Shown here: in pieces, positions 286 to 36,765 of the stretch
Layout: each line of letters opens with the position of its first letter
How positions within the stretch are numbered: position 1 is the stretch's first letter
Program-made: the position numbers and the translations under genes
The notes under the pieces: model-generated
What the model was told of the DNA's origin: nothing
Seen by the model: the letters and a program-made list of their open reading frames with translations, nothing else
Database searches by the model: none
Source of the DNA: Escherichia phage ECOH1
DNA: 64,000 bases
Reading direction: 5' to 3' (one strand)
Sequence record: ON540300.1

Positions 286-360
286 TAGTCCAAGTAGCTT
301 ATATGGTTAAAGCGCGTGTCTGAAAAACATGAGAAGAGGGTTCAAATCCCACTGGGCTAC
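286..360 (+). tRNA. tRNA-Phe-like (anticodon GAA), non-canonical acceptor/D junction
   Basis: Anticodon stem cgtgt/acatg with loop ctGAAaa, D-arm gctt-atatggtta-aagc, T-loop ttcaaat; acceptor pairing tagtcca/tgggcta leaves extra nucleotides before the D-stem and one T-stem mismatch. Confidence 0.45.
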
Positions 361-629
361 CAATTTCAAAGGTGCTTAATGAAAGAGATGACAGAACAAG
401 GTAAGGAGATTTTTAATCTCTTAAAAACCGGTAGAGGGTTTTCTAATCCCTTATTACTGGTGCAGCAGTTCTCGGTGGAACCGTAGCTGCCTCTACATCA
501 CTTGTAAGCTCTATTAGCTCTGTAACAGACCCTACAATAAAGGATAAACTTGTTGCTGCTGGACTTACAACAGTTCTGCTTAACAGCTTTACAACGAGTC
601 TGACAAGCACTACATCAACCACTAAGACA

Positions 630-1113: not shown

Positions 1114-1206
1114 GGAAGATTAACCCTAAAAGGTAAGGGAGCAGTTTGCTAAACTGCCAGTAGCTGAGAAATCGGTGTACCAGTTCAAGTCTGGTATCTT
1201 CCTCCA
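1114..1206 (+). tRNA. tRNA-Ser (anticodon GCU), type II with long variable arm
   Basis: Acceptor ggaagat/atcttcc, anticodon stem gcagt/actgc with loop ttGCTaa, 21-nt variable arm, T-arm accag-ttcaagt-ctggt, encoded CCA. Confidence 0.8.
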
Positions 1207-9486: not shown

Positions 9487-9884
9487 GACTCTTAAACAGA
9501 CACAGCTTTATAGTAAAGCGTAAAGTCTCTGAAGACGGTTATTATAATGATGATGGTGATTGGGTAGCTTCACAAGATATTGTAGAGGTTAACTGCAAAG
9601 GTAATATCCAGCCATATATCAAAGGTTCTGTAAAGAATGGTACACAGATTGCTTTACCGGAAGGTATTAGGCTTACCGATACAAGAATCCTGTATACCAC
9701 ATATAAACTTAGAACTTCAGATGATGTAGAGTGGAATGAGTCTGACATTGTTATGATTGATGGTCATGAGTATGAAGTATTTATGACTATGGATTGGTCA
9801 CAGCAATTAGCCCATACGTCCCATTATGAATATATCATTATTAGAAGGGATAAAATGAATGCAGTTAGAAACAGCAGAACTTGA
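9483..9884 (+). CDS. neck/tail completion protein (putative)
   Basis: Position; overlapping start. Confidence 0.4.
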   Translation: MRLLNRHSFIVKRKVSEDGYYNDDGDWVASQDIVEVNCKGNIQPYIKGSVKNGTQIALPEGIRLTDTRILYTTYKLRTSDDVEWNESDIVMIDGHEYEVFMTMDWSQQLAHTSHYEYIIIRRDKMNAVRNSRT

Positions 9885-10458
9885 AAAAGGTCTAGTTAGA
9901 ACCTTAGTGGATGTTATTGGTCACAGACTAACTCGTGATAAAAATAATAGACCAAATGTAATTAGAGCTTACCCTTCTGATAACTCAAATGACAAAGGTT
10001 TAAAACCTGACCAGCCATTTATTACCGTATATTGTCAAGATGCTGCAACACCTTATGGTTGGGTTCTTGATAAGTTTGTTGAGGATGATGTAGTTTGCTA
10101 CAGAATTGCTTTTCAGATTCCTGTACTAATTACGGTGAATGGTAAAGGTGCTCACAGTATTATGCTTGAGCTTAAACAACGATTAGAGATGAGTTCAGTC
10201 AGGGATTTAATTCTTGAAGAAACAGGGGCAACAGTCTTAGACACTGGAGCTATCCCGAATGACTATACTTATCTTAATACAGATTTCGAAAATTCTGCGC
10301 CTCTTGTTGTAACTCTTGTAAAAAATTCAGTCCTGAAAGATGAACGTGGAGGTATTATTGAACGTGTCATTGTTGATGGTGAATTAGTTTACGAAGAAGG
10401 ACAAGAGCCACCAGAATATACTATCCATCTAGATGTAGACTCCAAAGGGGTAAAATAA
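9859..10458 (+). CDS. tail completion protein (putative)
   Basis: Position; overlaps upstream ORF by 26 nt. Confidence 0.4.
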   Translation: MQLETAELEKGLVRTLVDVIGHRLTRDKNNRPNVIRAYPSDNSNDKGLKPDQPFITVYCQDAATPYGWVLDKFVEDDVVCYRIAFQIPVLITVNGKGAHSIMLELKQRLEMSSVRDLILEETGATVLDTGAIPNDYTYLNTDFENSAPLVVTLVKNSVLKDERGGIIERVIVDGELVYEEGQEPPEYTIHLDVDSKGVK

Positions 10459-11811
10459 ATGTGGAATCCAATTGTTAATGTAGATATTACATTGAACACC
10501 GCAGGAACTACAAGAGAAGGTTTTGGGCTACCACTATTTTTAGCTTCAACAGATAACTTTGAAGAAAGAGTCCGTGGTTACACTTCCTTAACTGAAGTTG
10601 CTGAAGATTTCGATGAAAACTCTGCTGCATATAAGGCTGCTAAACAACTTTGGAGTCAGACTCCTAAAGTAACCCAGCTTTATATTGGTAGACGTGCTAT
10701 GCAGTACACTGTATCAATTCCTGACTCTGTTACTGAAAGTACCGATTATTCTTTGACTGTAGCTGTGAGCGGTGGAATCTCTCAGCCATTCCAGTATACT
10801 TCAAAGACATCAGATACTGCTGAGAAGGTGTTACAACAGCTTAAAACACAGATTGAAGCTGACCCAACAATTAAAGATAAGGTCACTGTGAATGTAACTG
10901 GTGCTGGCGGTTCAGCCACAATGGTAATCACCAAAGCTGGTGTGAACGACTTCGTGAAGGTTACTTCTACAGCACAAACAGTGTCAATTGCAAGTACAAC
11001 TGCTGACACAGCATCTACTGCTTTGGCAGCTATTGAAGCTTATTCAACTGACTGGTATTTCATTGCAGCAGAAGACAGAACTCAACAGTTTGTCTTAGCA
11101 ATGGCTTCTGAGATTCAAGCTCGTAAGAAGATTTTCTTTACAGCTAACTCTGATGTAACAGCACTGCAAGGTACAGAATTAGCTAGTGCAAATGATGTTC
11201 CAGCACAGCTTGCTAAGAGTCAGTACACTCGTACCGTTTGCTTGTGGCATCACACGGCAGCAGAAGACTATCCAGAAATGGCATACATTGCTTATGGTGC
11301 TCCATATGATGCAGGTTCGATTGCTTGGGGCAATGCACAGCTAACTGGTGTAGCTGCTTCTCTACAGCCAGCTAATAAGAGACCTCTGACAAGTATTCAG
11401 AAGTCAGCTTTAGATGCACGTCACTGTAACTTTATTGACCTTGATGGTGGTGTTCCAGTGGTTCGTAGAGGGATTACTTCTGGTGGGGAATGGATTGATA
11501 TCATCCGTGGTGTTGACTGGTTAGAATCAGACCTGAAAACTTCTCTGAGAGACTTGCTAATTAACCAGAAGGGTGGTAAGATTACTTATGATGATACTGG
11601 TATTACCCGTATTCGTCAAGTCATTGAAACCTCTCTGCAAAGAGCAGTCAACAGAAACTTCCTGTCATCTTACACAGTTAATGTTCCTAAAGCCTCTCAA
11701 GTTGCTTTAGCAGACAAGAAAGCTCGTATCCTGAAAGATGTTACCTTCTCAGGTATCTTAGCAGGGGCTATCTTGGATGTTGACTTGAAAGGTACAGTGG
11801 CTTACGAATAA
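10459..11811 (+). CDS. tail sheath protein (putative)
   Basis: 450-aa ORF immediately followed by a ~150-aa tube-sized ORF, chaperone pair and tape measure: canonical contractile-tail gene order. Confidence 0.5.
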   Translation: MWNPIVNVDITLNTAGTTREGFGLPLFLASTDNFEERVRGYTSLTEVAEDFDENSAAYKAAKQLWSQTPKVTQLYIGRRAMQYTVSIPDSVTESTDYSLTVAVSGGISQPFQYTSKTSDTAEKVLQQLKTQIEADPTIKDKVTVNVTGAGGSATMVITKAGVNDFVKVTSTAQTVSIASTTADTASTALAAIEAYSTDWYFIAAEDRTQQFVLAMASEIQARKKIFFTANSDVTALQGTELASANDVPAQLAKSQYTRTVCLWHHTAAEDYPEMAYIAYGAPYDAGSIAWGNAQLTGVAASLQPANKRPLTSIQKSALDARHCNFIDLDGGVPVVRRGITSGGEWIDIIRGVDWLESDLKTSLRDLLINQKGGKITYDDTGITRIRQVIETSLQRAVNRNFLSSYTVNVPKASQVALADKKARILKDVTFSGILAGAILDVDLKGTVAYE

Positions 11812-11826
11812 TAGAGGTAAATTGGA

Positions 11827-12273
11827 ATGGCTATGTATCAGCAATATTCCCCTAAAGACGTTGTATGTAGCTGGAACGGCATTGCTATTGAAGGCTTTGC
11901 TCCAGATTCATTCTTACGTCTACAGAGAACATCACCACTTATCACACCAGTTGTAGGTGCGGGTGGTCAAGTTGCTCTGACAAGAAATGCAGACAAGACA
12001 GGTACTATTGAGATTGAGCTAATGCAGACTTCTCTCTCTAATCAGATGCTTTCTGCAATTCAAGCTAAACAAGACAATATGGAACTTGAAGAAGATATCT
12101 CTTCTAACTTCGTAATCTACGACCCATCAGGCTCTGTTCTGGCAACTGGTATTAATGCTTGGTTGCAGGAATTACCGCAGGTTGAACTTGGTCGTGACCA
12201 GAACTCTAAAACTTGGATTTTTGGTTGTGAGAAGCTAGACTACACTTCTACAATTCCAGCGTCAAGTGTTTAA
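11827..12273 (+). CDS. tail tube protein (putative)
   Basis: 148-aa ORF after sheath, followed by strong terminator. Confidence 0.5.
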   Translation: MAMYQQYSPKDVVCSWNGIAIEGFAPDSFLRLQRTSPLITPVVGAGGQVALTRNADKTGTIEIELMQTSLSNQMLSAIQAKQDNMELEEDISSNFVIYDPSGSVLATGINAWLQELPQVELGRDQNSKTWIFGCEKLDYTSTIPASSV

Positions 12274-12284
12274 TAAATCCTATA

Positions 12285-12318
12285 AGGGGGAGACTTTAAA
12301 AGGTCTTCCCCTTTTTTG
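12285..12318 (+). terminator. strong intrinsic terminator
   Basis: gggggagac-tttaaaa-ggtcttcccc hairpin followed by T7. Confidence 0.7.
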
Positions 12319-12346
12319 TTTCTTTTAAAAGTATTAAGGAATCACA

Positions 12347-12745
12347 ATGAAAACAGAATCTAGAGTAATTAATGGTAAGAAAGTAAATATCATTCTGCTT
12401 GGGGCAAGAGATGGTATTAAGATGTCTATGAAGTTGGGTAAAATTGTTGTTCCAACCTTTGCACAGATGCTATCAAGTCTGACTGATAAAGATAAGAAAG
12501 AAGCTCCAATGGTTCCATTTAAAGAACTTGTTGAAGCTTGTTTTGACAGAATTGAAGAAATTAACCTTGAAGAAATGGCTAACTTGTTATTTCAAGGGGC
12601 AACTGTTGATGACTTCCCACTTAATATTGATACGTACTTCCAAGCAAACTACGGTGAGTTTATTGATTACTTAGCATTTGCGCTGGAGGCAAACTTCGGA
12701 AGTTTTTTCGAAGCAAGCATTTTCAAAAGCCTAACTTCTCAGTAA
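12347..12745 (+). CDS. tail assembly chaperone (G-like)
   Basis: 132-aa acidic ORF directly upstream of the tape measure gene; contains slippery heptamer T_TTT_TTC near its 3' end. Confidence 0.55.
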   Translation: MKTESRVINGKKVNIILLGARDGIKMSMKLGKIVVPTFAQMLSSLTDKDKKEAPMVPFKELVEACFDRIEEINLEEMANLLFQGATVDDFPLNIDTYFQANYGEFIDYLAFALEANFGSFFEASIFKSLTSQ

Positions 12746-12747
12746 AC

Positions 12748-12986
12748 ATGGGTAACACTCTACAGACACCACTAACTGATGCTGCTGTAGAGGCAACCTA
12801 TGAAGAAGCAGACGAGATGAAATTTGTGCTTGCTATTTATGGTATGGAAGGGTGTAAAGAAACACTTGACCAACTCTTTGCTATGACATTCTCTGATTTA
12901 TTATCATTGAGACAATTTCTTGAAATTCAGAGGTCGTATAAAGAGGAAATTGCTTACAACGAACTTAGAAGAGCAGGAAAAATGTA

Positions 12987-12987
<1 letters not shown>
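12748..12987 (+). CDS. tail assembly chaperone extension (likely expressed as -1 frameshift fusion, GT-like)
   Basis: 79-codon ORF in the -1 frame relative to the upstream chaperone; -1 frame is open from slippery site 12703 through 12987. Confidence 0.45.
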
Positions 12988-18350
<5,363 letters not shown>

Positions 18351-25434: not shown

Positions 25435-26334
25435 TTATTTACCTACTGACAAAGGTGCTTCAATCTTTCCTGCATGTTGGTAATTGTTAATACCACCAAT
25501 AAAGTCACTTGCAGTGAGATGTTTTAAGTCACTTAAAGTGTTAAGTGGGATACCAATCTCAAAAGTTGGTGCATGGAACTCTTCATTGTTCATCAGTTCA
25601 TAAACCTGTTTCATATGGTTCTGATAAATCTGAGTATCTCCAAAGACACCTATCAAGTACCGTGGAGTATATCCAGTCATCTTACAAAGAACTTCCAGAA
25701 TAAAACCGTAAGATGCAATATTAAATGGAAGTCCTAAAAAGGTGTCTACTGAACGCTGATACCATTGTAAGTCAACTTCACCCTCGTTAGTAATATAAAT
25801 CTGAAACAGAACATGACAAGGTGCTAGAGCCATTGAGTTTGCTGCAATATCTGCCGCATTCCAAGCATTAACAAGCATGTAACGGTCTGTGATATCACCC
25901 TTCATCTTCGTTACTAAGGTCTCTAACTGGTCTACAACACAACCGTTATGACCTTCAAAGTTTCTCCACTGAACACCATAAATTCTTCCACCCGCATCTT
26001 CTAACCAATCTTGTTCAGAAGAGTAATTAGAGCTTAACCAGCGTTTAAAATCATCTGACCAGATAGTCCAGCGTTCTCCATCATTCTCACCCCAAGTACG
26101 GTAACGGAGTTCACCCAGCTTATTCTCACCATTCAGGAACCATAAAGCTTCCCCGATAACTTGCCGTGTAAACACCTGTTTAGATGTTAAGAGCGGGAAA
26201 CCAGTTCGCATATCAAAACGAAACTGAGGTGGAGCAAATGCAGAGATAACATCTCCAGTTCGTGTAGTACGCAGTTCACCAACTGATAAAACATGGTTCA
26301 GGATATTTTTGTAACTCAAATCTGCTTGTGACAT
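25435..26334 (-). CDS. thyA: thymidylate synthase (ThyA family)
   Basis: Motifs GRIYGVQWRNF and catalytic-Cys region MALAPCHVLFQIYI; adjacent DHFR gene supports a thymidylate synthase assignment. Confidence 0.75.
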   Translation of the reverse strand: MSQADLSYKNILNHVLSVGELRTTRTGDVISAFAPPQFRFDMRTGFPLLTSKQVFTRQVIGEALWFLNGENKLGELRYRTWGENDGERWTIWSDDFKRWLSSNYSSEQDWLEDAGGRIYGVQWRNFEGHNGCVVDQLETLVTKMKGDITDRYMLVNAWNAADIAANSMALAPCHVLFQIYITNEGEVDLQWYQRSVDTFLGLPFNIASYGFILEVLCKMTGYTPRYLIGVFGDTQIYQNHMKQVYELMNNEEFHAPTFEIGIPLNTLSDLKHLTASDFIGGINNYQHAGKIEAPLSVGK

Positions 26335-26335
26335 A

Positions 26336-26881
26336 TCAAAAGTGTCCTTTTACTTGTGGAACATAAATTTCAAAAGTTGCTTTACCATCCTCTGATGGTT
26401 TTGACTGTACCTTTGTAAATACACGGTTATCATACAGCTTCTCAAAGAAGTTTTCAAAAGGTAAATGCACAGTGGCCTCTTCAGTAACTTTATGGAAAAC
26501 TGTATGAAACACTACATCAGCATACGGTAAAGCATTGACAAGGACACCTGCACCACCAATTACAAAGACATCTTCATCAATAGAGCTATCAAGATACTTC
26601 AAAAATGCTCCAAATGACTCTTTACTGGCTTTAGCATACATTACCTCATCTTTACCAAAGTCTATGCCTAAGTATGGTACAGAGTTTGTTAAGATTAGGT
26701 TTGCACGTTCTGGTAAAGGTTTACTACCCAGAGTCTTAAAAGTCTCATTCCCCATCACTACTAAGTTATTTTTAGTGAGTCTCTTAAACTCTTGCATATC
26801 CTGTTTATGTCGAGGCCACGGCATACCAGTTGGAGTACCAAACTCACCATTTTCACCACTTGCAAAGATTAATTTAATCAT
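26336..26881 (-). CDS. dihydrofolate reductase
   Basis: N-terminal DHFR signature IFASGENGEFG...MPWPRHKQDMQEFK...VVMGNETFKTLG...PLPERANLILT. Confidence 0.8.
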   Translation of the reverse strand: MIKLIFASGENGEFGTPTGMPWPRHKQDMQEFKRLTKNNLVVMGNETFKTLGSKPLPERANLILTNSVPYLGIDFGKDEVMYAKASKESFGAFLKYLDSSIDEDVFVIGGAGVLVNALPYADVVFHTVFHKVTEEATVHLPFENFFEKLYDNRVFTKVQSKPSEDGKATFEIYVPQVKGHF

Positions 26882-27138
26882 TTTGTAAACCCTTTCTTAA
26901 TGAACCAGTTGATAACATTCTTCACAGCTTTATTGCTATGGTAGATTAGGTGTGGTGTAGGCTGGTATGAACCATAGGCCCAGAATGATAGATGCTCACC
27001 ACAACCAACACATGTAGTACTTTCTTCAGCTATATGACCATTAACAATCACATGAACTTCACCTTGCAAGTCTGTACACCCACAATGTGGGCAACGGATA
27101 GGTGTTCCATCAGACTCATAGCAGTGTTCAATTTTCAT
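26878..27138 (-). CDS. zinc-ribbon protein (putative)
   Basis: CPHCGC...CVGCGEH cysteine pairs. Confidence 0.45.
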   Translation of the reverse strand: MKIEHCYESDGTPIRCPHCGCTDLQGEVHVIVNGHIAEESTTCVGCGEHLSFWAYGSYQPTPHLIYHSNKAVKNVINWFIKKGFTK

Positions 27139-27654
27139 TTATTTAACCTCAAAAACTGGCTCAAGAACCAATATAAAGTCTACACAATCATCTTCTTCAT
27201 CCAGAATACCATCAAAGTTCTTAGGAACGAAGTCGAAGAGGCTCATAACAAAACAGTCAGAAGTAACCCTGATAGTTCCTCCCATGTTCTCTACAGTCAA
27301 CACTGTACGACTTTCTTTTACCTCTCTCAGAAGATTACTCACAAAGTCATCTAAGAAGTACTTCATCAGTGACTTAAAACCTTTAGGGTAATCTGTACCA
27401 GAGTATGTTTCAATCTGGGGTACAAGCTTAACATTTATACTAGTCTTTGTTAAGAACGTGCTAGAGAACATGCTATCAGGTAACTTACAAACAATCTTTC
27501 CAGTACCTTCATGCTCAATCTCAACAAAACCAGCTTCGTCGCCACATGTAACTATTTTAAAAGATGCTTCATTCTCATGCTGTGAAGCCATAAACTTTTT
27601 AAGCATCACTTTAAGGAAATCTGCATGAGCATCTTGTAAGTAGATATCAATCAT
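27139..27654 (-). CDS. hypothetical protein
   Basis: 171-aa ORF tightly packed in minus-strand operon. Confidence 0.45.
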   Translation of the reverse strand: MIDIYLQDAHADFLKVMLKKFMASQHENEASFKIVTCGDEAGFVEIEHEGTGKIVCKLPDSMFSSTFLTKTSINVKLVPQIETYSGTDYPKGFKSLMKYFLDDFVSNLLREVKESRTVLTVENMGGTIRVTSDCFVMSLFDFVPKNFDGILDEEDDCVDFILVLEPVFEVK

Positions 27655-27667
27655 AGTTAATCACCTA

Positions 27668-28027
27668 TTATGGGAACAGACACTTGATGTCATCATTTTT
27701 GAAAACAAAACTTGTGTAGTTGTGACCATCAACATCCAGCCAAACAGCCTGAACATCTACACCATCAAGATTGTGGTAAAGCTCTTTGATGAAGTGGTCT
27801 TTCACAACCTGACTACTAGTTGTTTCCAGCTTAATGTTTGAGATTGCTGAACCTACAGCCATATAACCCATGACACGTTTCTTCTCAGTATGCTTAATCT
27901 TACCATCTTTGTAAGCCATAATGAGATTGGAAAGAATCTTCACACCATAATACTTTTCAAGGTGAGTAGGTACACCGTAAAAACCTAATGCGAAGTTTTC
28001 AGAGTGGATAATGTTTTCACGTTTCAT
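27668..28027 (-). CDS. hypothetical protein
   Basis: 119-aa ORF. Confidence 0.45.
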   Translation of the reverse strand: MKRENIIHSENFALGFYGVPTHLEKYYGVKILSNLIMAYKDGKIKHTEKKRVMGYMAVGSAISNIKLETTSSQVVKDHFIKELYHNLDGVDVQAVWLDVDGHNYTSFVFKNDDIKCLFP

Positions 28028-28028
28028 A

Positions 28029-28358
28029 TTAATCTGCCAACCTTAAATTAAAATTAACACCAAATTTTTCACATACTTCCAACATAAACTCAAGAGAGAC
28101 ATTACCAGTGAGGTTGATTATGTTGGATACACGAGCTTGAGAGATACCACAAATCTTAGCAACTTGCTCTTGAGAAAGACCTCTGGATTTAATCTCTCTC
28201 TTAAAACGATGTGCAACGAAGTCTCTCATTTCGTCTACATCCATTGGACAAATATAACTCTCCATTTCAGCTTCTCTGTCAGCCTCCCAATCATCTTGTG
28301 GAGCATAAGGGTCAAAAACCTCATTCATCTTTCTTCTTCCGTTTACGTGAAGCATCAA
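28029..28358 (-). CDS. helix-turn-helix DNA-binding protein (XRE-like)
   Basis: HTH-like segment LSQEQVAKICGISQARVSNIINLTGN. Confidence 0.55.
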   Translation of the reverse strand: MMLHVNGRRKMNEVFDPYAPQDDWEADREAEMESYICPMDVDEMRDFVAHRFKREIKSRGLSQEQVAKICGISQARVSNIINLTGNVSLEFMLEVCEKFGVNFNLRLAD

Positions 28359-28533
28359 TCAATGAATCTATGTTTGTAGCTCTAACCTTTTCACGTTCAT
28401 CGTTAAGATAATCATCAAGAGCCTTCTCAATCTGTGAATCATCTTGACAGATAACTGTAAAGACTGTAAAGCCATCTATATCATCAATTATCTTACCATA
28501 ACCGCTTCTGGGATGTAACTTTTTAAGAGCCAT
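28321..28533 (-). CDS. hypothetical small protein
   Basis: 70-aa ORF overlapping the start of the downstream gene. Confidence 0.35.
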   Translation of the reverse strand: MALKKLHPRSGYGKIIDDIDGFTVFTVICQDDSQIEKALDDYLNDEREKVRATNIDSLIDASRKRKKKDE

Positions 28534-28534
28534 A

Positions 28535-28918
28535 TCAAATACCTGTGCAGCTTCTGTTTTCTAAGAAATACTCAACACCATACATAGCTTTTTGCATCAA
28601 GTCTTCTTTAAACTGAATACGATGATTGAGCATAGCCTGTACATCAATATCTTCATGGTGCTTCTCTTTAATGTTTGCAGATTGCAGGAAATACTCTGCA
28701 AGAACACGATACTGATAGTCAGTTACCTTATCAGTCATCTCTGTTAAAGACTCTTCAGAGATTGGTTTAAGTAACTCACCATTAGCCAAAGCAACACCTT
28801 TAACAATCTGACAAGTGTCTTCTGGAACACCTGATAAGTCCACATTTGGGAGTTCTGTTGCATTGACTGGTAAATTCATTGACATAACCATTGCAGCAGC
28901 TAATAAAATCTTTTTCAT
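28535..28918 (-). CDS. secreted/periplasmic protein with signal peptide (first gene of minus-strand operon)
   Basis: N-terminus MKKILLAAAMVMSMNLPVNA resembles a Sec signal peptide. Confidence 0.5.
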   Translation of the reverse strand: MKKILLAAAMVMSMNLPVNATELPNVDLSGVPEDTCQIVKGVALANGELLKPISEESLTEMTDKVTDYQYRVLAEYFLQSANIKEKHHEDIDVQAMLNHRIQFKEDLMQKAMYGVEYFLENRSCTGI

Positions 28919-29478
28919 AATGACCTCAAAGTTATATTAAATTTTGTATTACATTGAGTATAAAAATAAGCTATAACACCTGATTTGTCAACAGATTTTA
29001 TAGCTTATTTGGCAGATTTTTTTTATAAGGCTACTGCCATCCTTCCATACCAAACCATACCAGACATAGCCATACCCGACCGTACCTCGCCTCACAACAC
29101 TTAAAAATCCTCTTAGAAGACTCTTAAGTGATGTAATCGAATTTTAATGTAGCTCCGATTAACTACCCATACCTCACCTCATCCAACCATACCATGCCTT
29201 ACCAGACCGCACCTTACCTTATTAAAAGACCCTATTTAAAGACCTTTTAAAAAGGTGAGTCTCATTTTAAATGTAGCTGAGACTAACTACCCATACTGTA
29301 CCGCACCTGACCCGACCTGACCAGACCTAACATTACCGTGCCACACCGTACCGAACAGAACATTGCCATACCTCGCATCACTTAAAAACCCTTTTAAAAG
29401 ACTCTTAAGTGATGCTGGTGAGTACCCGTCGGTTTATGCTGCTCAGTATACTCACCAAATTTTCTATGTCAACAACTT
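28919..29478. repeat. 560-bp non-coding region with composite direct repeats, CCATACC-like heptamer tracts and hairpins
   Basis: Two copies of cacttaaaaa(t/c)cc...aagactcttaagtgatg (about 29098 and 29380), two copies of ttttaa(a)tgtagct..aactacccatac (about 29142 and 29263), more than 12 CC(A/G)TACC-like units, strongly G-poor top strand. Confidence 0.7.
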
Positions 29479-30582
29479 TTATTCATAATCCCTAATAACT
29501 AGTCCGACAGGGAACTGTAAAGAACCCTTACGAGTCATCTTCTGGAACTGTACCGTTAAAGGCTTCCCGATAAACTCTTCAGGATGCTCAGCAAGATACT
29601 GTTTCTTCTCATGAGTAGTCTTCCATGAGACATCTACAAAGACGTTAGGAAGAGTCTCTACAACGAACTTGCCATGACCACGCTTATCAGTCTTTACACC
29701 AGTCACTTTAAACTCTTCAGTGTGCATCTTCTTGTGCTTAATCAAGAAGTATGAACGGTGACAACACTCATAGAAGGAGTCTTCAGAGATTGAACGGTAC
29801 ATTGCACCTTCAAACTTAGCTTCAACCCACTTATCATGAGCTTCATCAAACTCTTCCCAAGAATTTACACGACGAGACTTAACAGGAACAACTTTACAGC
29901 CGTCTCTGAAGTCATTCAATGGTGAAGTCTCAATAATATCTCTACGCTCAGGCCACGTCTTAGTACTATCACAGATATCGTACCAGTAAAACTTGAGCAA
30001 GTGTCTGTCAGGATTGTCTTCATTTTTAATCATGGAGACGATATCTTCTAAGTCCCACCCATGAGCATAAATCTCTCCATCAAATTCATCAACATCTTTG
30101 TGGAGCCTTAGCATTGCCATAATGTCAGGTATTAGTTCGGCAGGGATTTTATAAACAGTATTTTCACGAGAATATGCTGTAAATACACTGCCAATACTTA
30201 AGTGTCTTGAAATTCTACAACGGACACCATCAAGTTTTGGTTGAGCATCAGCAGGGAACTTCAGATACTTTGCATGACTAACCTTTGCAGCATCATGAGC
30301 AAGCTGCACACCTACCTTCTCAGTATTCTGTGCAGACTCTTTTGTGTAAGCATAGCCTTTGCGGTCAACCTGCTTTTTATACTTAGCAGCAACTTCAAAG
30401 AGAGCTTGCTGTTCAGCGTTACGCTCATTCTTTTTACCGATGTTTTTAGGTTCTGCTGTATACTCTTCAAACATCATCTTGCCATTTTCTTTGCCATACG
30501 TGGTAACAACTTTGTCACCTACAGCGACACATGACCAGACGTTAAAAGAGCCATCTTTATTTTGTTTGTACAGTATTGTCAT
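29479..30582 (-). CDS. ATP-dependent DNA ligase
   Basis: Adenylation motif I PKLDGVRCRIS (KxDG); start moved to internal ATG at 30582 with RBS cagaggaataaa. Confidence 0.7.
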   Translation of the reverse strand: MTILYKQNKDGSFNVWSCVAVGDKVVTTYGKENGKMMFEEYTAEPKNIGKKNERNAEQQALFEVAAKYKKQVDRKGYAYTKESAQNTEKVGVQLAHDAAKVSHAKYLKFPADAQPKLDGVRCRISRHLSIGSVFTAYSRENTVYKIPAELIPDIMAMLRLHKDVDEFDGEIYAHGWDLEDIVSMIKNEDNPDRHLLKFYWYDICDSTKTWPERRDIIETSPLNDFRDGCKVVPVKSRRVNSWEEFDEAHDKWVEAKFEGAMYRSISEDSFYECCHRSYFLIKHKKMHTEEFKVTGVKTDKRGHGKFVVETLPNVFVDVSWKTTHEKKQYLAEHPEEFIGKPLTVQFQKMTRKGSLQFPVGLVIRDYE

Positions 30583-30583
30583 T

Positions 30584-30775
30584 TTATTCCTCTGAGTGAT
30601 ACCAAGTATTGCAAGCATTACATGCGTAAAGCTCTAAGTCATTTTTATCTGGTTTATGAAAACAGTTTGCTCCGCAGTGGCAACGAAACGGCTTTCCACC
30701 AACTGTCAGGATGAAGGATTGAACCTTTCCATCAGGAGTCCGTACAGCATTTTTATGCTTGTCTTCTTTATTCAT
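30584..30775 (-). CDS. small zinc-finger protein
   Basis: CHCGANC...CNAC cysteine clusters in 63 aa. Confidence 0.4.
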   Translation of the reverse strand: MNKEDKHKNAVRTPDGKVQSFILTVGGKPFRCHCGANCFHKPDKNDLELYACNACNTWYHSEE

Positions 30776-30931
30776 TTGTGCTATTGCCTTTGTCAGATTT
30801 CATATAGGACATGTTACTATGCCTTTTAATAAAATGTACAACGCATTTTGGTGTATCTTTTGTGTCTTTGATGTGCAATCTATCGAAACTGTGTACTGTG
30901 AAGGTTGCATCTGTCATTGTCTGCTTAGGTT

Positions 30932-31138
30932 TCATTTTCTTTTACCACCAATCTCTACGTCAATAACTTGAACATCACCAGCAACATCAAACTTATGAAT
31001 GATGCTTTCCACAGTGTAAGTCCAACCCTCAATGCGAACCAACTCACCTTCTCGTGGGACGATTGGGTTACGTTGAGCTACGGTTGTAGTGGAGTGAACA
31101 ACATCATAACAGTAGATATAGTTTACTAGGACTTCCAT
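30932..31138 (-). CDS. hypothetical small protein
   Basis: 68-aa ORF. Confidence 0.4.
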   Translation of the reverse strand: MEVLVNYIYCYDVVHSTTTVAQRNPIVPREGELVRIEGWTYTVESIIHKFDVAGDVQVIDVEIGGKRK

Positions 31139-31391
31139 ATCTTCACCTTAAAAGAATAAGTCAGATGCTTTTGGGTTGATTAAACTCATGCAGTTTTGAA
31201 GCATGGCTTCATTGTACCCATCTTGGCAAACTACGTAGAGTTTATCGAAAGTTTCTTTTGATGCTGGGTAGACTGATAACTCCTGGCATACACTAAGATA
31301 CCATTAGTAATCTAAGCCTCTGCTCCAAGCGTCAGCGATTAGGGCTGTAGCTTTGTCTTTGCTTCTGATAACTTCATCAGACTTTTCAATT

Positions 31392-31547
31392 TTACTGTTC
31401 ACGATGTTCTACCTCTCTGTACGTTCGTCGATAGTATATGATAAGCTGTGCTAACTCGTTGCTTTTAACATCTGAACGTAGCAGTTGCCAATCAAAACCT
31501 TTACCGACTCTTCCATATAAGCTAAATAATTTTACTTTGCGTTTCAT
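31392..31547 (-). CDS. small basic protein (51 aa), not in the ORF track
   Basis: ATG preceded by RBS gggag; translation MKRKVKLFSLYGRVGKGFDWQLLRSDVKSNELAQLIIYYRRTYREVEHREQ. Confidence 0.35.
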   Translation of the reverse strand: MKRKVKLFSLYGRVGKGFDWQLLRSDVKSNELAQLIIYYRRTYREVEHREQ

Positions 31548-31564
31548 TTTGGTACTCCCAATAC

Positions 31565-31792
31565 TCAGAGGCCAATACTAATACGTTCACCCTTGAGGAC
31601 TCCTGTACGGTCTCTTGCAATCTTGCCGTCAACAATAAGGATATGCGCAGACCTTAAAGATTCACTATTAAAACCTTTTACGAACTTGCTAGGCATCACT
31701 ACAATGTACATCTTCTGAATCAACTCTGGAGTGTAGCAGTTATCATGAAGTTGCTGAATAACGTCTGCAAGTGTCATTTTTGATGTCTCCAA
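31565..31792 (-). CDS. hypothetical small protein
   Basis: 75-aa ORF. Confidence 0.4.
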   Translation of the reverse strand: METSKMTLADVIQQLHDNCYTPELIQKMYIVVMPSKFVKGFNSESLRSAHILIVDGKIARDRTGVLKGERISIGL

Positions 31793-31983
31793 TATTCAAT
31801 ATCTACAAGTTCTTGTGCAATGCTTTTCAGATTACCTTTCAAGAAAACCTTCTCAGAACCTGAAAGAGATGAATTGTCAATTAACCTGTTCATCCTCTCA
31901 AACAACTTCTGTTTACGGTTCTTGATAGTTTCCTTTGAAGCACCTTTCATCATCGCTGCATGGGTTCTTCCACGGTGGCTCAT
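31774..31983 (-). CDS. hypothetical small basic protein
   Basis: 69-aa ORF. Confidence 0.4.
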   Translation of the reverse strand: MSHRGRTHAAMMKGASKETIKNRKQKLFERMNRLIDNSSLSGSEKVFLKGNLKSIAQELVDIEYWRHQK

Positions 31984-32034
31984 AAGCCCTCCTATATAAG
32001 ATATTGTATAAGGTACTCTTCCCTGAGCACCTTG

Positions 32035-32568
32035 TCAACTTAGTTTTGCAAACTCTCCGTGGAGTTTCACAGCAGCTTCACAGTAAGCTTTATGGGCTTC
32101 TTCAGGTGTGTCATGGTGACCTAAAAACATCTTCTTACCTTTATAACTTATCTGTGCGACCCACTTACCAGACTTCTTCTTAAGGCTTACACCCTTGTAC
32201 CCAGATTTATTGGTGGCTAGTTTACCTTTATTCCAAGCACTTTGGAAGTCATCTGCTTCCCTTAAGTTTGCAATCCTGTTGTCAAGAGAGTCTCCGTTGA
32301 TATGGTCAATGATACCTTTTGGCATCTTGCCATATACATAAAGCCATGCGAGTCTGTGTGCTTTATGTGCTTTCTTGTCAAAATAGATACTAATCTGTTT
32401 ATGACCAGTTGAATCAGTCTGGATATTACCTGCCACCTTTCCTGCATAATTACTGTTAAAAACACTAACAGCTCTTGATTTACCTTCTCTACGAAGCCAA
32501 GTAAAGACCCCTGTTTCGGGGTCATAGTGCAGCAGCTCCTTTAAACGTTTTTGTAAAATTAAATCCAT
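32035..32568 (-). CDS. HNH endonuclease with AP2-type DNA-binding domain (free-standing homing-endonuclease-like)
   Basis: HNH-like IIDHINGDSLDNRIANL followed by AP2-like GYKGVSLKKKSGKWVAQISYKGKKMFLGHHDTPEEAHKAY. Confidence 0.65.
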   Translation of the reverse strand: MDLILQKRLKELLHYDPETGVFTWLRREGKSRAVSVFNSNYAGKVAGNIQTDSTGHKQISIYFDKKAHKAHRLAWLYVYGKMPKGIIDHINGDSLDNRIANLREADDFQSAWNKGKLATNKSGYKGVSLKKKSGKWVAQISYKGKKMFLGHHDTPEEAHKAYCEAAVKLHGEFAKLS

Positions 32569-32571
32569 TAA

Positions 32572-35271
32572 TCAATGTACCTCCAACCAGCTCTTACCAA
32601 CCTTTGCTGTACCAGTTACAAGTGTTTCTTTCCTCAAACCTAAGTTTTTTGAAGCTTGTCCATACATCCAGTCAGCAATTGCTTTCATATCCTGTGTCAT
32701 ACCCTCTGGACATTCCCAACTATTTTCATCGTGATATGCCAGAAGTAACCTTGCTCCGATAGCTGGTTTTCGAGCATTCAGTTTTGTCAGGCCATCTTCA
32801 CAGGCTTTTCTTGCTGCTAGGTTGATAGCCTCATTCTGAATCTGTGCTTCCGAACTCATCAGGAGGTAGTTCAGTAGTTTATGTGGAGATTTGCACCATA
32901 TCCATGCTCCAGCGACCCTGATATAACCACCTTTAGCAATTGAAGAATTCTTCCCAAAAACCTCTTCCAGAGCCTTTTTAGACGCCTTAAAATCGGCTTC
33001 TAAGCTATCAAGTAACTTCTTAATCTTTGGCAGACGCATATAGTAAGTTTGTTTAGTCAATGCACCCTCTTCCGTAGATGATGCCTTGATAGTTTTTGCA
33101 AACTTCTCGTCTCCGGCTCCAAATAACAGGGCGTAGATGCCATTTTTGCTCTTCTTACGACCTTTTGTAATCTCGTGAAGAAGTTCCTCATCCTGTGTCT
33201 CCCTGCAACGAACAATATCCTCTTCTTTGTTAAGACCAAAGTAAATACTGTTCAGTGTATGCGCATCAGTCCCTGTGTAGACTTCATAGAGGTCATTTTC
33301 AGCATCATAACGCAGATACTTGTCAGTTTCTGGGTTAAGATACTTGTCAAGATGTTTACAGTAGTATCTACCATCATCTTGCTTAGTGAACTCCACTGAC
33401 TCTTTACCCTCAGTTACCGCTTTAGTGAAGTCTTCATCACCCATAAAGTTACAAAGGAGAACTAGCTGGGCTGAGTTTTGGTCAACAGAAACAATGTTAG
33501 TCCCCTCTTCACAAATCCACACTGCCCTCATAGGTGCTCCGTAGACAGCAGCACCAGACGGTACGTTTACAATACCATACTGTGTCATACGTCCAGTTGA
33601 AGTACCAAACACCATTGCACCAGCACTAAGGCGACCATCAGGACGAATCTGGTTCAACCAACCTTTTTCATCATCCTTTGAGTTCTCAATAGTTCTGCGT
33701 CGGTGCATCAAAGTATAGTACTTTGCAATCTTCTGTCCAAGTTCACCTTCAATCGTATCATAAGATGACTCAGTAAGCTTTGGTGAAGTACGGATTAAGC
33801 AAGGCTCAAGCAAATCTGTGTACTTCTTCACAGACCAGTTATGCTCAATGTACTGTATACCTTCATGTTCAACATAACTCAAACCACACCGCTCAACCAT
33901 TTCCTGCCACTTAGGATGTTTTGTAATCATCTTTTTATTGTCTTTGAAACGACAAACTTTGACAGGGCGACCGTCTGAGTCTTTCTTGTAGTTCCAGTCA
34001 TCTGGAATCCAACCAACTGATTTCAAGTAGTCTTTAACAACGGCTACCTGAGTCATACGAGAAACTTCAAACTCAATTGGTGTATATGGTGCATCAATCA
34101 AACCTGTGTAGCGACTTGACTCAAGTTCAAAGTGGTTAACAACGTGACTGTTATAGTACTTCACAGTCTTGACTGTTTTTACTGGTTTCCAGTCTTTGCA
34201 TTTCTTACCAATCTTTGCGTTCAACTCATTGCAAATTGCACGAGCATCCTTCATTGCTACAAAACCTTCCTTGTACTCTTCACCAGTTACAGTGTTGGTT
34301 GGTGTATAGCAATTTCTCTTTTCAATGTTAAAAATCTTTGTAGTTGGCTTACCAAATGGTTTAATTTCGTATGTCTGCATCTCACCATTACGTACCTGCT
34401 GACGATACTTTGTCTTAGGGTACTTGGTAATTCTCTTCAGTCCATCTGCATGACCAAATGTTTCAACATACTCATTCCAAGCTTTTGCAAACTCTTCTCC
34501 AGTGACTTTACCTTTGGTCTTAATAGTTGGAGGCAGGTGTGGTTCAACCTCTGAAGCAAGCTCATTAGTCAACTTGTCAAGTTCCTTTACATGGAACTCC
34601 ATAAGCTCTTTATCAGCTTTCCAGCCATTGATAGCTTGTTGACTCATCCAGAAAGATGTTTCTTTAGCTCGCATATAGGTTTCATAAGTGTCTATGCCAC
34701 ACTTCTTTAGCTTCAGATATTCATTATCCAGTGCGCGTTTAGTTTTGGCGTTAATACGGATATCTTCTACAACACGAGTGAAGATTTCTGCATTCCACAC
34801 ACCCCAATGTTCAATCTCTGGTTTACGGACACCAACACGAGCACCCCATGCAGCCAAACCATGAGCACCTTTATAACCCTTTGGAGTTGGTCTATCCATC
34901 CACTGAACACGAGACTGGATAAGAGAATCCTGAAAGAAATTACTCCACGGCTTGCACTTTGGATTATCAAAGTTCCATAAATCAGGTGCAATGTGATTGA
35001 AAACCCACCAGTCATAACCCAGACCATTATGGATGCAAAGTCGTTTTGCCTTTAACGCAAACTCAATACCTTCACGTAAGCCACCCTTGATGTACTTGGT
35101 ATACTTGTGACCGAGGATAGGTTCATCTGTAAAGACCCATACAGGTGGCTCTTCATCGTCAGATTTATAGTCTGCGAAAGCCATTACGTGCACTTTAGTG
35201 AACTCAAGGAGTAAACCATCAGTTTCTGTATCACCAACCAAATGTAAGTTTTTAAAATCTACGTTTTCCAT
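32572..35271 (-). CDS. DNA polymerase, family A
   Basis: 3'-5' exonuclease motif DTETDGL near N-terminus, motif-B-like KKSKNGIYALLFGAG, motif C YHDENS; start moved to ATG 35271 with RBS agagggag (track start 35301 has no RBS). Confidence 0.8.
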   Translation of the reverse strand: MENVDFKNLHLVGDTETDGLLLEFTKVHVMAFADYKSDDEEPPVWVFTDEPILGHKYTKYIKGGLREGIEFALKAKRLCIHNGLGYDWWVFNHIAPDLWNFDNPKCKPWSNFFQDSLIQSRVQWMDRPTPKGYKGAHGLAAWGARVGVRKPEIEHWGVWNAEIFTRVVEDIRINAKTKRALDNEYLKLKKCGIDTYETYMRAKETSFWMSQQAINGWKADKELMEFHVKELDKLTNELASEVEPHLPPTIKTKGKVTGEEFAKAWNEYVETFGHADGLKRITKYPKTKYRQQVRNGEMQTYEIKPFGKPTTKIFNIEKRNCYTPTNTVTGEEYKEGFVAMKDARAICNELNAKIGKKCKDWKPVKTVKTVKYYNSHVVNHFELESSRYTGLIDAPYTPIEFEVSRMTQVAVVKDYLKSVGWIPDDWNYKKDSDGRPVKVCRFKDNKKMITKHPKWQEMVERCGLSYVEHEGIQYIEHNWSVKKYTDLLEPCLIRTSPKLTESSYDTIEGELGQKIAKYYTLMHRRRTIENSKDDEKGWLNQIRPDGRLSAGAMVFGTSTGRMTQYGIVNVPSGAAVYGAPMRAVWICEEGTNIVSVDQNSAQLVLLCNFMGDEDFTKAVTEGKESVEFTKQDDGRYYCKHLDKYLNPETDKYLRYDAENDLYEVYTGTDAHTLNSIYFGLNKEEDIVRCRETQDEELLHEITKGRKKSKNGIYALLFGAGDEKFAKTIKASSTEEGALTKQTYYMRLPKIKKLLDSLEADFKASKKALEEVFGKNSSIAKGGYIRVAGAWIWCKSPHKLLNYLLMSSEAQIQNEAINLAARKACEDGLTKLNARKPAIGARLLLAYHDENSWECPEGMTQDMKAIADWMYGQASKNLGLRKETLVTGTAKVGKSWLEVH

Positions 35272-35301
35272 TTTTACTCCCTCTAAAATCATTAACCTCA
35301 T

Positions 35302-35528
35302 ACATTACTGCAAAAAATTATAAAAAGCAAGTTGACAATGCACTTGACAAGGTGTTAATCTTTGCGAAGTGGGTTTTTACTTAAAAGGTTACTTAACAGT
35401 TTAAATATACAGATACTTTAAAACTCTTAAAAGATTATTTAATAGCTTTTAAAAAGCTTTAAAGTATAACGTATAGAATACGTTAAGATAAAAGATTAAA
35501 ACTTAATAGTTACTTAAAAGAGGCTTAC
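35302..35528. promoter_or_regulatory. divergent intergenic control region between polymerase (-) and early operon (+)
   Basis: Tandem TTGACA hexamers (35331-35336, 35343-35348), palindrome agcttttaaaaagct and inverted repeat aacgtat-aga-atacgtt in AT-rich context. Confidence 0.45.
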
Positions 35529-35951
35529 ATGCAGAAAATGTTTGTTCACCCAGACATAGCTGACTTTGTTAGAGCTTTGCAGAAGTTGGAAGAACTTGAC
35601 ATTGCTGCTCAACGGGAATATGCTCACCATCACAGGAGAATGGTTGATATACAACATGAAATAGAGTTGTCTGAAAACTATGAAGATGACTTAAAATGCT
35701 CTGTATTTGAGCATATGAAAGATGTTGCTACAGCGAGACGTAAAGCTAAAGACACAGTTGCTTTACTAGATTCTCTTAAAAAGAGGTTGCAAAGTGGTAC
35801 AGACCTGTGTAATCTAGCATCACTGATTAACGATGTTGAAACTTCTTGGGATAGGCACTATTATCCACGTTCTGAAAAGACACTTGACTTTTCTTCATCC
35901 GAAAACTTAAAATGTTCTAGAAAGAAACTCAACCAACTGAGAGAGAAATAA
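35529..35951 (+). CDS. hypothetical protein
   Basis: 140-aa ORF, first gene after divergent promoter region. Confidence 0.5.
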   Translation: MQKMFVHPDIADFVRALQKLEELDIAAQREYAHHHRRMVDIQHEIELSENYEDDLKCSVFEHMKDVATARRKAKDTVALLDSLKKRLQSGTDLCNLASLINDVETSWDRHYYPRSEKTLDFSSSENLKCSRKKLNQLREK

Positions 35952-35952
35952 T

Positions 35953-36765
35953 ATGAATATCAATGTAGAAAAGATGCTTGAAGAAAAAGGTATTGACGAA
36001 GCGTTCTTAATCAATGCCGTAGAAAGCATGGCTATGATTCTTCGTGGCAACAACTACACAGAACAGTTTATGCCTGCAAGCTATAACTTGCCTAAAGATA
36101 AGTCTGATAACGGTGCTTTTGCAGAACAGGTTAATATGATGCTGTGTGATAAAACACTTGCTTTAGCATCTATCGTTGTAGGTGTTGATGCTCTTGCAGA
36201 GTTCATTTTTTATGAGATGCAGAAAAATGACTATATTGCCATGACCTCTGAAGAAAAAGACTCGCTACTGCTCTTAGGTTATGATGAGCTAGTTAACCTG
36301 TTAATTTCGTCAACGAGTGCTGTTATGGCTGCTCTTGAGAAGCGAATGGAAGAGAAGCTGTCACGATATGAAAAGCTTGATTGGGGTGTAGAAGAGTTAA
36401 ACCCACGAATCAAAGAGATTATCCAGCAAACCAAAGATTCTTTGGAAGAAGCTGTGAAAAATGATTCTGTAGCTGACATAGAGCCACTTCAGGTGAAAGT
36501 TGCATTGATGATTCCAGCCATCTCCACGATGATGAATATCGTTGCACTAATCCAGCTTTCACAGATGATGGGCACAAGCATTGAGTTCATTGAGAGTATG
36601 ACTGGTGGTGTGAGTATGCAAGCAATCAATGATGTTCTGGTGAGCATTGGTGCTTCAATCATTGAAGAGAAGCTGCGCATTAACTTTGGTGATGATTTTG
36701 TGAAGCAAATCTCAGCTATGGCTGAAAAAGAGTATTCACAGGCTAATACTGACCAACTGCACTAA
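35953..36765 (+). CDS. hypothetical protein
   Basis: 270-aa ORF, coupled to upstream gene. Confidence 0.5.
   Translation: MNINVEKMLEEKGIDEAFLINAVESMAMILRGNNYTEQFMPASYNLPKDKSDNGAFAEQVNMMLCDKTLALASIVVGVDALAEFIFYEMQKNDYIAMTSEEKDSLLLLGYDELVNLLISSTSAVMAALEKRMEEKLSRYEKLDWGVEELNPRIKEIIQQTKDSLEEAVKNDSVADIEPLQVKVALMIPAISTMMNIVALIQLSQMMGTSIEFIESMTGGVSMQAINDVLVSIGASIIEEKLRINFGDDFVKQISAMAEKEYSQANTDQLH

What the first reader, a model, noticed from the sequence alone, without database searches (positions are those of the whole stretch)
12700..12750. Programmed -1 frameshift signal joining the two tail-assembly chaperone ORFs
The heptamer T_TTT_TTC (12703-12709) lies 34 nt before the stop of ORF 12347-12745, and the -1 frame is open from that site into ORF 12748-12987. 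This matches the conserved chaperone frameshift found directly upstream of tape measure genes.
Basis: partly seen in the sequence, partly recalled or inferred. Interest (0 to 1): 0.5.

Follow-up and report, generated by a model that had tools for sequence, protein, structure and literature searches.

The report
Tail chaperone −1 frameshift site, FelixO1-like phage
This is the usual "slippery" sequence that lets a phage make a short and a long version of its tail-assembly helper protein from one gene; the site is real and strongly conserved, but it is already annotated in sister phages and is ordinary.

Summary
T_TTT_TTC lies at 12703-12709 in the correct register (zero frame AGT TTT TTC). The -1 frame is open from 12667 to the stop at 12985-12987. 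The fusion would be 213 aa (24.3 kDa), not about 225 aa.

The window is a Felixounavirus (98% identical to Escherichia phages PHB11 and ekra). Gene order is sheath, tube, chaperone (Pfam Phage_TAC_15), -1 extension, tape measure protein.

The heptamer is not there by chance:
- It is the only in-register T_TTT_TTC in about 18,600 codons of the window.
- It sits in the only invariant run of at least 8 nt (12701-12711) across 34 distinct Ounavirinae sequences.
- It is kept in register in 52 of 53 metagenomic relatives, down to 25% protein identity and up to 65% GC.
- "ORF2" has no Shine-Dalgarno sequence.
- In 11 of 18 lineages the -1 extension has no start codon for at least 35 codons.

Most likely mechanism: lambda G/GT-type programmed -1 ribosomal frameshifting. 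There is no downstream RNA structure. An upstream GGAGG with a 13-nt spacer may stimulate the shift, but the evidence is weak.

The same shift is annotated in GenBank for Citrobacter phages Michonne and Mordin and stated in the Michonne and Moogle genome papers. Verdict: correct, already known, low interest.

The parts
12347..12745 (+). Tail assembly chaperone, short (G-like) form, 132 aa, 14.9 kDa, made by standard decoding
   Evidence: Pfam PF21822 Phage_TAC_15, E 1.2e-19, 71.5 bits against a cut-off of 22. phrog_1613 tail assembly chaperone, E 7.7e-49. Its own SD, AAGGA, scores -6.1 kcal/mol.
12685..12689 (+). GGAGG, a Shine-Dalgarno-like sequence 13 nt upstream of the heptamer; possible 5' stimulator (inferred, weak)
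   Evidence: It scores -9.3 kcal/mol against the anti-SD, in the top 0.4% of in-register positions within +/-1.5 kb. An SD-like element is in the top ~2.5% in 11 of 18 lineages, including lineages where the encoded residues differ (AAGGAG, AGGGAG). Given the amino-acid sequence, however, P = 0.058 here and Fisher's combined P = 0.013, with lineages not independent. The element is absent in Kolesnikvirus.
12703..12709 (+). Slippery heptamer T_TTT_TTC, the site of tandem tRNA-Phe slippage into the -1 frame
   Evidence: Register checked. It is unique in the window. It lies inside the only invariant run of at least 8 nt, 12701-12711. It is conserved in register in 52 of 53 related loci. U_UU.U_UU.C is listed among the efficient E. 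coli motifs (PMC4066793).
12667..12745 (+). Overlap in which both the zero frame and the -1 frame are open; the only place a -1 shift can join the two ORFs
   Evidence: The nucleotide-variability minimum of the whole two-ORF region falls at 12692-12736. blastn against Erwinia phages matches only 12692-12732, at 92.7% identity.
12709..12987 (+). -1-frame extension (T-like domain), 92 aa plus stop, read after the shift. Fusion = 12347-12709 joined to 12709-12987, 213 aa, 24.3 kDa
   Evidence: Translation. The extension is 85-105 aa in all 18 lineages. In the window its stop (12985-12987) overlaps the tape measure ATG at 12987. tblastn with the fusion covers 100% of the query in two frames in Erwinia phages at 43% identity.
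12748..12987 (+). 'ORF2' as called by gene finders (79 aa). It is the distal part of the -1 extension and probably not an independent gene
   Evidence: phrog_4963 tail assembly chaperone, E 2.8e-55. There is no SD: +0.7 kcal/mol, against -5.1 to -10.7 for 16 neighbouring genes. The ATG is absent in phiEa21-4 and in many distant relatives.
12987..15194 (+). Tape measure protein, 735 aa; the inferred client of the chaperone
   Evidence: Pfam TMP_3, E 2e-17. phrog_4036, E 0.
10459..12273 (+). Tail sheath (10459-11811) and tail tube (11827-12273) genes immediately upstream (context)
   Evidence: Sheath: DUF3383 and phrog_205 tail sheath. Tube: KPP10_Orf10 and phrog_280.

Best explanation
This is a lambda G/GT-type programmed -1 ribosomal frameshift in the tail assembly chaperone gene of a FelixO1-like myophage.

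Most ribosomes translate 12347-12745 to the TAA and release the 132-aa chaperone. A minority pause with tRNA-Phe on UUU (P site, 12704-06) and tRNA-Phe on UUC (A site, 12707-09). Both tRNAs slip back one base onto UUU UUU (12703-08). Translation then continues in the -1 frame from CGA at 12709 to the TAA at 12985-87, giving a 213-aa fusion (...ANFGSFF-RSKHFQKP...).

By analogy with lambda gpG/gpGT (inferred, not tested here), the shared N-domain coats the tape measure protein. The C-terminal extension recruits the tube protein. The fixed shift frequency sets the ratio of short to long form that tail assembly needs.

Shown here: the geometry, the register, nucleotide-level selection on the heptamer, and the lack of independent initiation signals for the extension.

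Inferred: that the shift is ribosomal, its efficiency, the roles of the two forms, and a possible 5' stimulatory role for the upstream GGAGG.
For: - Register and open frames.
- Gene context sheath-tube-chaperone-extension-tape measure, with a Pfam Phage_TAC_15 hit.
- The heptamer is the only in-register T_TTT_TTC in 18,592 codons.
- It is invariant in Felixounavirus, Suspvirus, Mooglevirus, Kolesnikvirus, Yersinia phage P778 and Pectobacterium phage Arno18.
- It is present in register inside the -1 overlap in 52 of 53 IMG/VR relatives. The one exception, L060, keeps C_CTT_TTT at the homologous codons.
- It persists in genomes of 57-65% GC, where TTT and NNT codons are disfavoured. The preceding codon is always NNT (AGT, ACT or GAT). 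The joint probability from synonymous codon choice is about 1e-14 over 18 lineages if they are treated as independent.
- The only invariant run of at least 8 nt in the two-ORF region is 12701-12711.
- blastn against Erwinia phages detects only 12692-12732.
- The ATG at 12748 has no SD, unlike 16 of 16 neighbouring genes.
- In 11 of 18 lineages the first start codon in the -1 extension is at least 35 codons in.
- GenBank annotates the same slip in Michonne ('ribosomal slippage (47149)', which falls inside the T run) and a two-piece joined CDS in Mordin. The Michonne and Moogle genome papers state it: PMC4591319 and PMC4319497.
- U_UU.U_UU.C is a frameshift-prone motif in E. coli: PMC4066793.
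Against: - I found no experimental demonstration for any FelixO1-like phage. All support is comparative or annotation.
- There is no downstream stimulatory structure in the window: MFE -3.6 kcal/mol, z +1.4, and no consensus structure. Efficiency therefore cannot be estimated.
- An ATG lies 2 nt after the zero-frame stop, so some independent reinitiation of a 79-aa product cannot be excluded.
- The conserved F-F dipeptide explains part of the T-run conservation. It does not explain the TTT codon choice or the preceding NNT.
Confidence: 0.88

Rival explanations
1. These are two separate genes. The 79-aa ORF2 starts at ATG 12748 by termination-reinitiation coupling after the TAA at 12743-45, and no fusion is needed.
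For: The ATG lies 2 nt after the stop. Most GenBank Felixounavirus records annotate two separate CDSs.
Against: There is no SD: +0.7 kcal/mol against -5.1 to -10.7 for 16 neighbours. The ATG is missing in Kolesnikvirus and in many relatives, where the first start codon lies 35-72 codons into the conserved extension. This model does not explain nucleotide-level selection on the heptamer, including the NNT before it.
Confidence: 0.06
2. The shift is transcriptional slippage. RNA polymerase adds one extra U in the T6 run, so a subset of mRNAs encode the fusion in a single frame.
For: The site is a homopolymer. The GenBank record of phage CL1 has T7 at this site and therefore encodes exactly the predicted fusion as one ORF. 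Some distant relatives have T7.
Against: Productive bacterial transcriptional slippage is described for runs of about 9 A or T (PMC5009743), and T6 is short. The heptamer fits the tandem-slippage rule exactly and belongs to an efficient ribosomal motif class (PMC4066793).
Confidence: 0.05
3. The heptamer is fortuitous. The T run only reflects a conserved Phe-Phe in the chaperone, and the -1 ORF is an unrelated small gene.
For: F-F is part of a conserved NF-x-S-FF protein motif.
Against: Codon choice (always TTT first, and always NNT before it) is kept in 18 lineages, including high-GC ones; joint P is about 1e-14. The frame geometry and the extension length are conserved. The extension abuts the tape measure gene in the window.
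Confidence: 0.01

Closest known systems
Tape-measure chaperone frameshift annotated in FelixO1-like Citrobacter phages Michonne (KT001916), Mordin (KT363872), Moogle and Mijalis (Mooglevirus, Ounavirinae)
   Same: The gene is orthologous (about 71-76% protein identity). The heptamer AGTTTTTTCGA is identical and in the same register. The direction is -1 and the junction is the same (...GSFF-R...). GenBank joins the CDS at the T run. Stated in PMC4591319 and PMC4319497.
   Different: This phage belongs to a different genus (Felixounavirus). In its genus the records I inspected annotate two separate CDSs. In the Mooglevirus phages the zero frame runs 9 nt further. Their annotation is also computational, not experimental.
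Bacteriophage lambda gpG/gpGT (Levin et al. 1993; Xu, Hendrix and Duda 2004, 2013, 2014)
   Same: Two overlapping ORFs lie directly upstream of the tape measure gene. [quoted passage not shown]
   Different: Lambda uses G_GGA_AAG and is a siphovirus. No sequence similarity to lambda G/GT was detected: the hit is Pfam Phage_TAC_15, not the lambda family. The ratio and binding partners were not tested here.
P2 gpE/E+E' and Mu-type myovirus chaperone frameshifts
   Same: These are contractile-tail phages with the chaperone pair between the tube gene and the tape measure gene. The shift is -1 (PMC5009743 notes 2-3-fold higher efficiency in P2-like phages).
   Different: They belong to other protein families and use other heptamers. 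This comparison was not made at sequence level here.
E. coli dnaX and IS-element -1 frameshift cassettes with a 5' Shine-Dalgarno stimulator
   Same: An SD-like GGAGG lies 13 nt upstream of the heptamer. That is inside the 6-17 nt range used for such stimulators (PMC4066793; PMC5009743).
   Different: dnaX also has a strong 3' hairpin, which this site lacks. The SD-like element is not universal in the family and is only weakly beyond what the protein sequence imposes.

Membership tests
G/GT-type tail assembly chaperone programmed -1 frameshift (Xu, Hendrix and Duda 2004) | Two ORFs located between the major tail/tube gene and the tape measure gene | tested here: met
   Tube 11827-12273, chaperone 12347-12745, extension to 12987, tape measure 12987-15194.
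G/GT-type tail assembly chaperone programmed -1 frameshift (Xu, Hendrix and Duda 2004) | The downstream ORF is in the -1 frame and overlaps the 3' end of the upstream ORF | tested here: met
   The -1 frame is open from 12667, giving a 79-nt overlap. The same geometry occurs in all 53 related loci.
G/GT-type tail assembly chaperone programmed -1 frameshift (Xu, Hendrix and Duda 2004) | A canonical slippery heptamer X_XXY_YYZ in register inside the overlap | tested here: met
   T_TTT_TTC at 12703-12709 is the only such heptamer in the overlap.
G/GT-type tail assembly chaperone programmed -1 frameshift (Xu, Hendrix and Duda 2004) | The slip site is conserved among relatives beyond what the protein sequence requires | tested here: met
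   52 of 53 loci. Joint P from codon choice is about 1e-14. It lies in the only invariant run of at least 8 nt.
G/GT-type tail assembly chaperone programmed -1 frameshift (Xu, Hendrix and Duda 2004) | The extension has no translation initiation signals of its own | tested here: met
   There is no SD at 12748. In 11 of 18 lineages there is no start codon for at least 35 codons.
G/GT-type tail assembly chaperone programmed -1 frameshift (Xu, Hendrix and Duda 2004) | The fusion protein is actually made at a low fixed ratio, and both forms are required for tail assembly | not testable with these tools
   This needs a western blot, mass spectrometry or genetics. No published experiment on FelixO1-like phages was found.
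Pfam PF21822 Phage_TAC_15 | Sequence score above the family's gathering threshold | tested here: met
   71.5 bits against a cut-off of 22, E 1.2e-19, covering residues 9-124.
dnaX/IS-type stimulated -1 frameshift cassette | An SD-like sequence 6-17 nt upstream of the heptamer | tested here: inconclusive
   GGAGG is present with a 13-nt spacer, in the top 0.4% of positions. Given the protein sequence, P = 0.058 in the window and 0.013 combined. It is absent in Kolesnikvirus.
dnaX/IS-type stimulated -1 frameshift cassette | A stable hairpin or pseudoknot 5-9 nt downstream of the heptamer | tested here: not met
   MFE is -3.6 kcal/mol with z +1.4, and 188 of 200 shuffles fold at least as well. 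RNAalifold predicts zero pairs across 9 Ounavirinae sequences.
Transcriptional slippage recoding sites | A homopolymeric A/T run of about 9 or more | tested here: not met
   The run is T6. The run length of about 9 is taken from PMC5009743.

The most novel reading that the evidence does not exclude
The slip site is not lineage-specific. It is an ancient, family-wide feature of Phage_TAC_15 chaperones. T_TTT_TTY is embedded in the conserved NF-x-S-FF motif and kept at nucleotide level from 37% to 65% GC and down to about 25% protein identity. In this lineage the shift would be driven by an upstream anti-SD pairing (GGAGG, 13-nt spacer) instead of any 3' RNA structure. It might also be tuned by the phage's own tRNA-Phe(GAA) and tRNA-Ser(GCU), which decode the three codons at the site.
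Probability: 0.25. Interest if true: 0.3.

Novelty: already known. Interest (0 to 1): 0.15.

Why it matters
The practical value is for annotation. Most Felixounavirus GenBank records, including FelixO1 itself, list two separate small genes or "hypothetical proteins". Kolesnikvirus records leave the extension unannotated (phiEa21-4) or split it into small fragments (Coenus). All should carry a joined "ribosomal slippage" CDS of about 213 aa.

Biologically it confirms that this myophage group uses the standard chaperone-ratio device for tail length and assembly. The deep nucleotide conservation of one heptamer across a whole chaperone family, and the lack of a 3' structure, are minor points of interest for people who study recoding.

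Tried and rejected
- Downstream stimulatory RNA structure. I folded 12703-12800 and the homologous stretches, and ran RNAalifold on 9 Ounavirinae sequences. Nothing was stable or conserved. A -16 kcal/mol hairpin at about 12749-12800 starts 40 nt after the heptamer, too far away, and is not significant (z -1.6). Some high-GC or distant relatives (L053, L043, L049) have hairpins 1-4 nt after the heptamer, but none beats its shuffles.
- Intragenic terminator. A weak hairpin followed by the T run at 12683-12709 was flagged as 'terminator-like'. I rejected it: 6 pairs, two of them G-U, inside a conserved coding motif.
- Alternative slip sites in the overlap. There are none in the window. TTTGGAG and AAACCTG in some relatives are not conserved.
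- Solved-structure relatives. A profile search of the PDB found none (best E 0.2, an unrelated epoxide hydrolase).
- NCBIfam. No family matched.
- Experimental evidence in the literature. None found for FelixO1-like phages.
- Not run. I did not use the large protein searches or structure prediction, because family membership was already settled by Pfam and PHROGs.

Full report
**What is in the sequence.**
TTTTTTC occupies 12703-12709. ORF 12347-12745 reads ...GGA AGT TTT TTC GAA..., so the heptamer is in the X_XXY_YYZ register: T | TTT | TTC. The zero-frame stop TAA is at 12743-45. The -1 frame is open from 12667 (after a TGA) through the ATG at 12748 to TAA at 12985-87. Only a 79-nt stretch can therefore join the two ORFs. 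Slipping on the heptamer gives 121 zero-frame residues plus 92 residues in the -1 frame. That is 213 aa and 24.3 kDa, against 132 aa and 14.9 kDa for the short form.

**Context.**
The window is a Felixounavirus. The stretch 11800-13400 is 98-99% identical to Escherichia phages PHB11, pEP20 and ekra, and 294 phage records match it. The gene order, is:

| Coordinates | Gene | Support |
|---|---|---|
| 9859-10458 | neck/tail terminator | Pfam Phage_tail_terminator_9 |
| 10459-11811 | sheath | DUF3383, phrog_205 |
| 11827-12273 | tube | KPP10_Orf10 |
| 12347-12745 | tail assembly chaperone | Pfam Phage_TAC_15, E 1.2e-19 |
| 12748-12987 | ORF2 | phrog_4963 "tail assembly chaperone" |
| 12987-15194 | tape measure protein | TMP_3, phrog_4036 |
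| 15194-15991 | Dit-like protein | Pfam Dit_like |

This is the canonical position of the G/GT chaperone pair.

**Is the heptamer more than chance?**
- In 67 gene-like ORFs (18,592 codons) of the window, in-register T_TTT_TTC occurs exactly once, here. The expected count of any X_XXY_YYZ in the 26-codon overlap is 0.09, and of efficient-class motifs 0.015.
- The heptamer is invariant and in register in Suspvirus SUSP1, Mooglevirus Mordin and Michonne, Kolesnikvirus phiEa21-4 and Coenus, Yersinia phage P778 and Pectobacterium phage Arno18.
- blastn of the two ORFs against Erwinia phages detects only window 12692-12732, at 92.7% identity. The slip site is an island of nucleotide conservation in otherwise diverged genes.
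- Over 34 distinct Ounavirinae sequences the variability minimum is at 12692-12736. The only invariant run of at least 8 nt in the 641-nt region is 12701-12711, AGTTTTTTCGA.
- Of 53 IMG/VR loci that encode relatives of the chaperone, 52 carry T_TTT_TTC or T_TTT_TTT in register inside the -1 overlap. The exception, L060, keeps C_CTT_TTT at the homologous codons.
- The 52 include relatives at 25-31% identity and genomes of 57-65% GC, where TTT and NNT codons are disfavoured. The preceding codon changes amino acid (Ser, Thr, Asp) but always ends in T.
- Given each lineage's codon usage, the joint probability is about 1e-14 over 18 lineages. This treats the lineages as independent, which overstates the significance somewhat.

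**Is the downstream ORF an independent gene?**
The ATG at 12748 has no Shine-Dalgarno sequence: +0.7 kcal/mol against the anti-SD. All 16 neighbouring structural genes score -5.1 to -10.7. In 11 of 18 lineages, including phiEa21-4, the first ATG, GTG or TTG in the -1 extension lies 35-72 codons in. That is inside the conserved domain, so the domain can only be reached by frameshifting. The extension is 85-105 aa in all 18 lineages, and in the window its stop overlaps the tape measure start codon. The fragmented annotation in Erwinia phage Coenus (a "hypothetical protein" plus a truncated chaperone) and the unannotated gap in phiEa21-4 are what a missed frameshift looks like.

**Prior knowledge.**
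GenBank annotates a two-piece joined "tape-measure chaperone" CDS in Citrobacter phage Mordin. That coordinate maps to the fourth T of the same T run and gives the same junction...GSFF-R.... The Michonne and Moogle genome announcements state that the tail assembly or tape-measure chaperone of these FelixO1-like phages uses a translational frameshift (Michonne specifies -1). The Michonne paper cites Xu, Hendrix and Duda 2004 (PMC4591319, PMC4319497). The Felixounavirus records I inspected (ekra, BPS17W1) list two separate CDSs. I found no experimental test in this phage group.

**Mechanism.**
U_UU.U_UU.C is among the frameshift-prone heptamers in E. coli. It belongs to the H_HH.U_UU.Y class, gives more than 0.1% shifting without stimulators, is under-represented in E. 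coli genes, and is used by IS elements (PMC4066793). With tRNA-Phe(GAA) on UUU in the P site and on UUC in the A site, both tRNAs can re-pair on UUU UUU one base back.

There is no 3' stimulatory structure. The 68 nt from the heptamer fold at only -3.6 kcal/mol (z +1.4), and RNAalifold finds no conserved pair.

An SD-like GGAGG lies at 12685-89, 13 nt upstream. That is within the 6-17 nt range used for 5' stimulators (PMC4066793). Such stimulators are a major feature of dnaX and of an estimated 56% of IS elements (PMC5009743). The element is in the top 0.4% of in-register positions. SD-like motifs also recur where the encoded residues differ: AAGGAG in L043 and AGGGAG in L058. Conditioned on the protein sequence, however, the signal is weak: P = 0.058 in the window and Fisher's combined P = 0.013. 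It is also missing in Kolesnikvirus. I treat it as a lead, not a finding.

The roles of the two products are inferred from lambda (PMC5009743): the short form coats the tape measure protein, and the extension recruits the tube protein at a fixed ratio.

**Rivals.**
- Independent reinitiation at ATG 12748: confidence about 0.06.
- Transcriptional slippage on T6: about 0.05. T6 is short compared with the runs of about 9 known in bacteria. The CL1 record with T7 shows that one extra T encodes the fusion.
- A fortuitous heptamer: about 0.01.

**Verdict.**
It is an ordinary, already-annotated recoding site of a well-known kind, useful mainly for correcting annotation. Interest 0.15.

Noticed in passing
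L007 (OK040806.1, Escherichia phage CL1) 957-964; homologous to window 12703-12709: The CL1 record has seven T's instead of six. The chaperone and its extension are therefore one continuous 213-aa ORF, identical in layout to the predicted fusion. This is either a homopolymer sequencing error or a phage that encodes only the long form.
   Followed up: partly
window 12284-12313 (+), T-tail to 12323: A strong intrinsic-terminator-like hairpin (13 pairs, followed by TTTTGTTTCT) lies between the tube gene and the chaperone gene. A terminator is annotated at the same place in Mordin and Michonne. It would lower expression of the chaperone and tape measure genes relative to sheath and tube.
   Followed up: partly
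window 287-362 and 1114-1206 (+): The phage encodes tRNA-Phe(GAA) and tRNA-Ser(GCU). These are the tRNAs that decode the three codons at the shift site (AGU, UUU, UUC). This is probably a coincidence within a larger tRNA cluster (six tRNAs at 14-1286), but they could influence shift efficiency.
   Followed up: no
L004 (phiEa21-4) 1269-1506; L009 (Coenus) 1039-1244: In Kolesnikvirus records the -1 extension is either unannotated or split into a 'hypothetical protein' and a truncated 'tail assembly chaperone'. These look like gene-calling artefacts of the missed frameshift.
   Followed up: partly
L053 1903-1939; L043 1859-1880; L049 1862-1890: Some distant or high-GC relatives have hairpins starting 1-4 nt after the heptamer (for example about -30 kcal/mol in L053). 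None beats dinucleotide shuffles. The type of stimulator may differ between lineages of the same chaperone family.
   Followed up: partly
window 12710-12734: The 25 nt after the heptamer (CGAAGCAAGCATTTTCAAAAGCCTA) are nearly invariant across Ounavirinae genera. Both frames are translated here, which may explain it. A role as a linear, unstructured stimulator is not excluded.
   Followed up: no
window 26000-36000: GC skew turns negative across roughly 26-36 kb, which suggests a block of genes on the minus strand. This was not examined.
   Followed up: no
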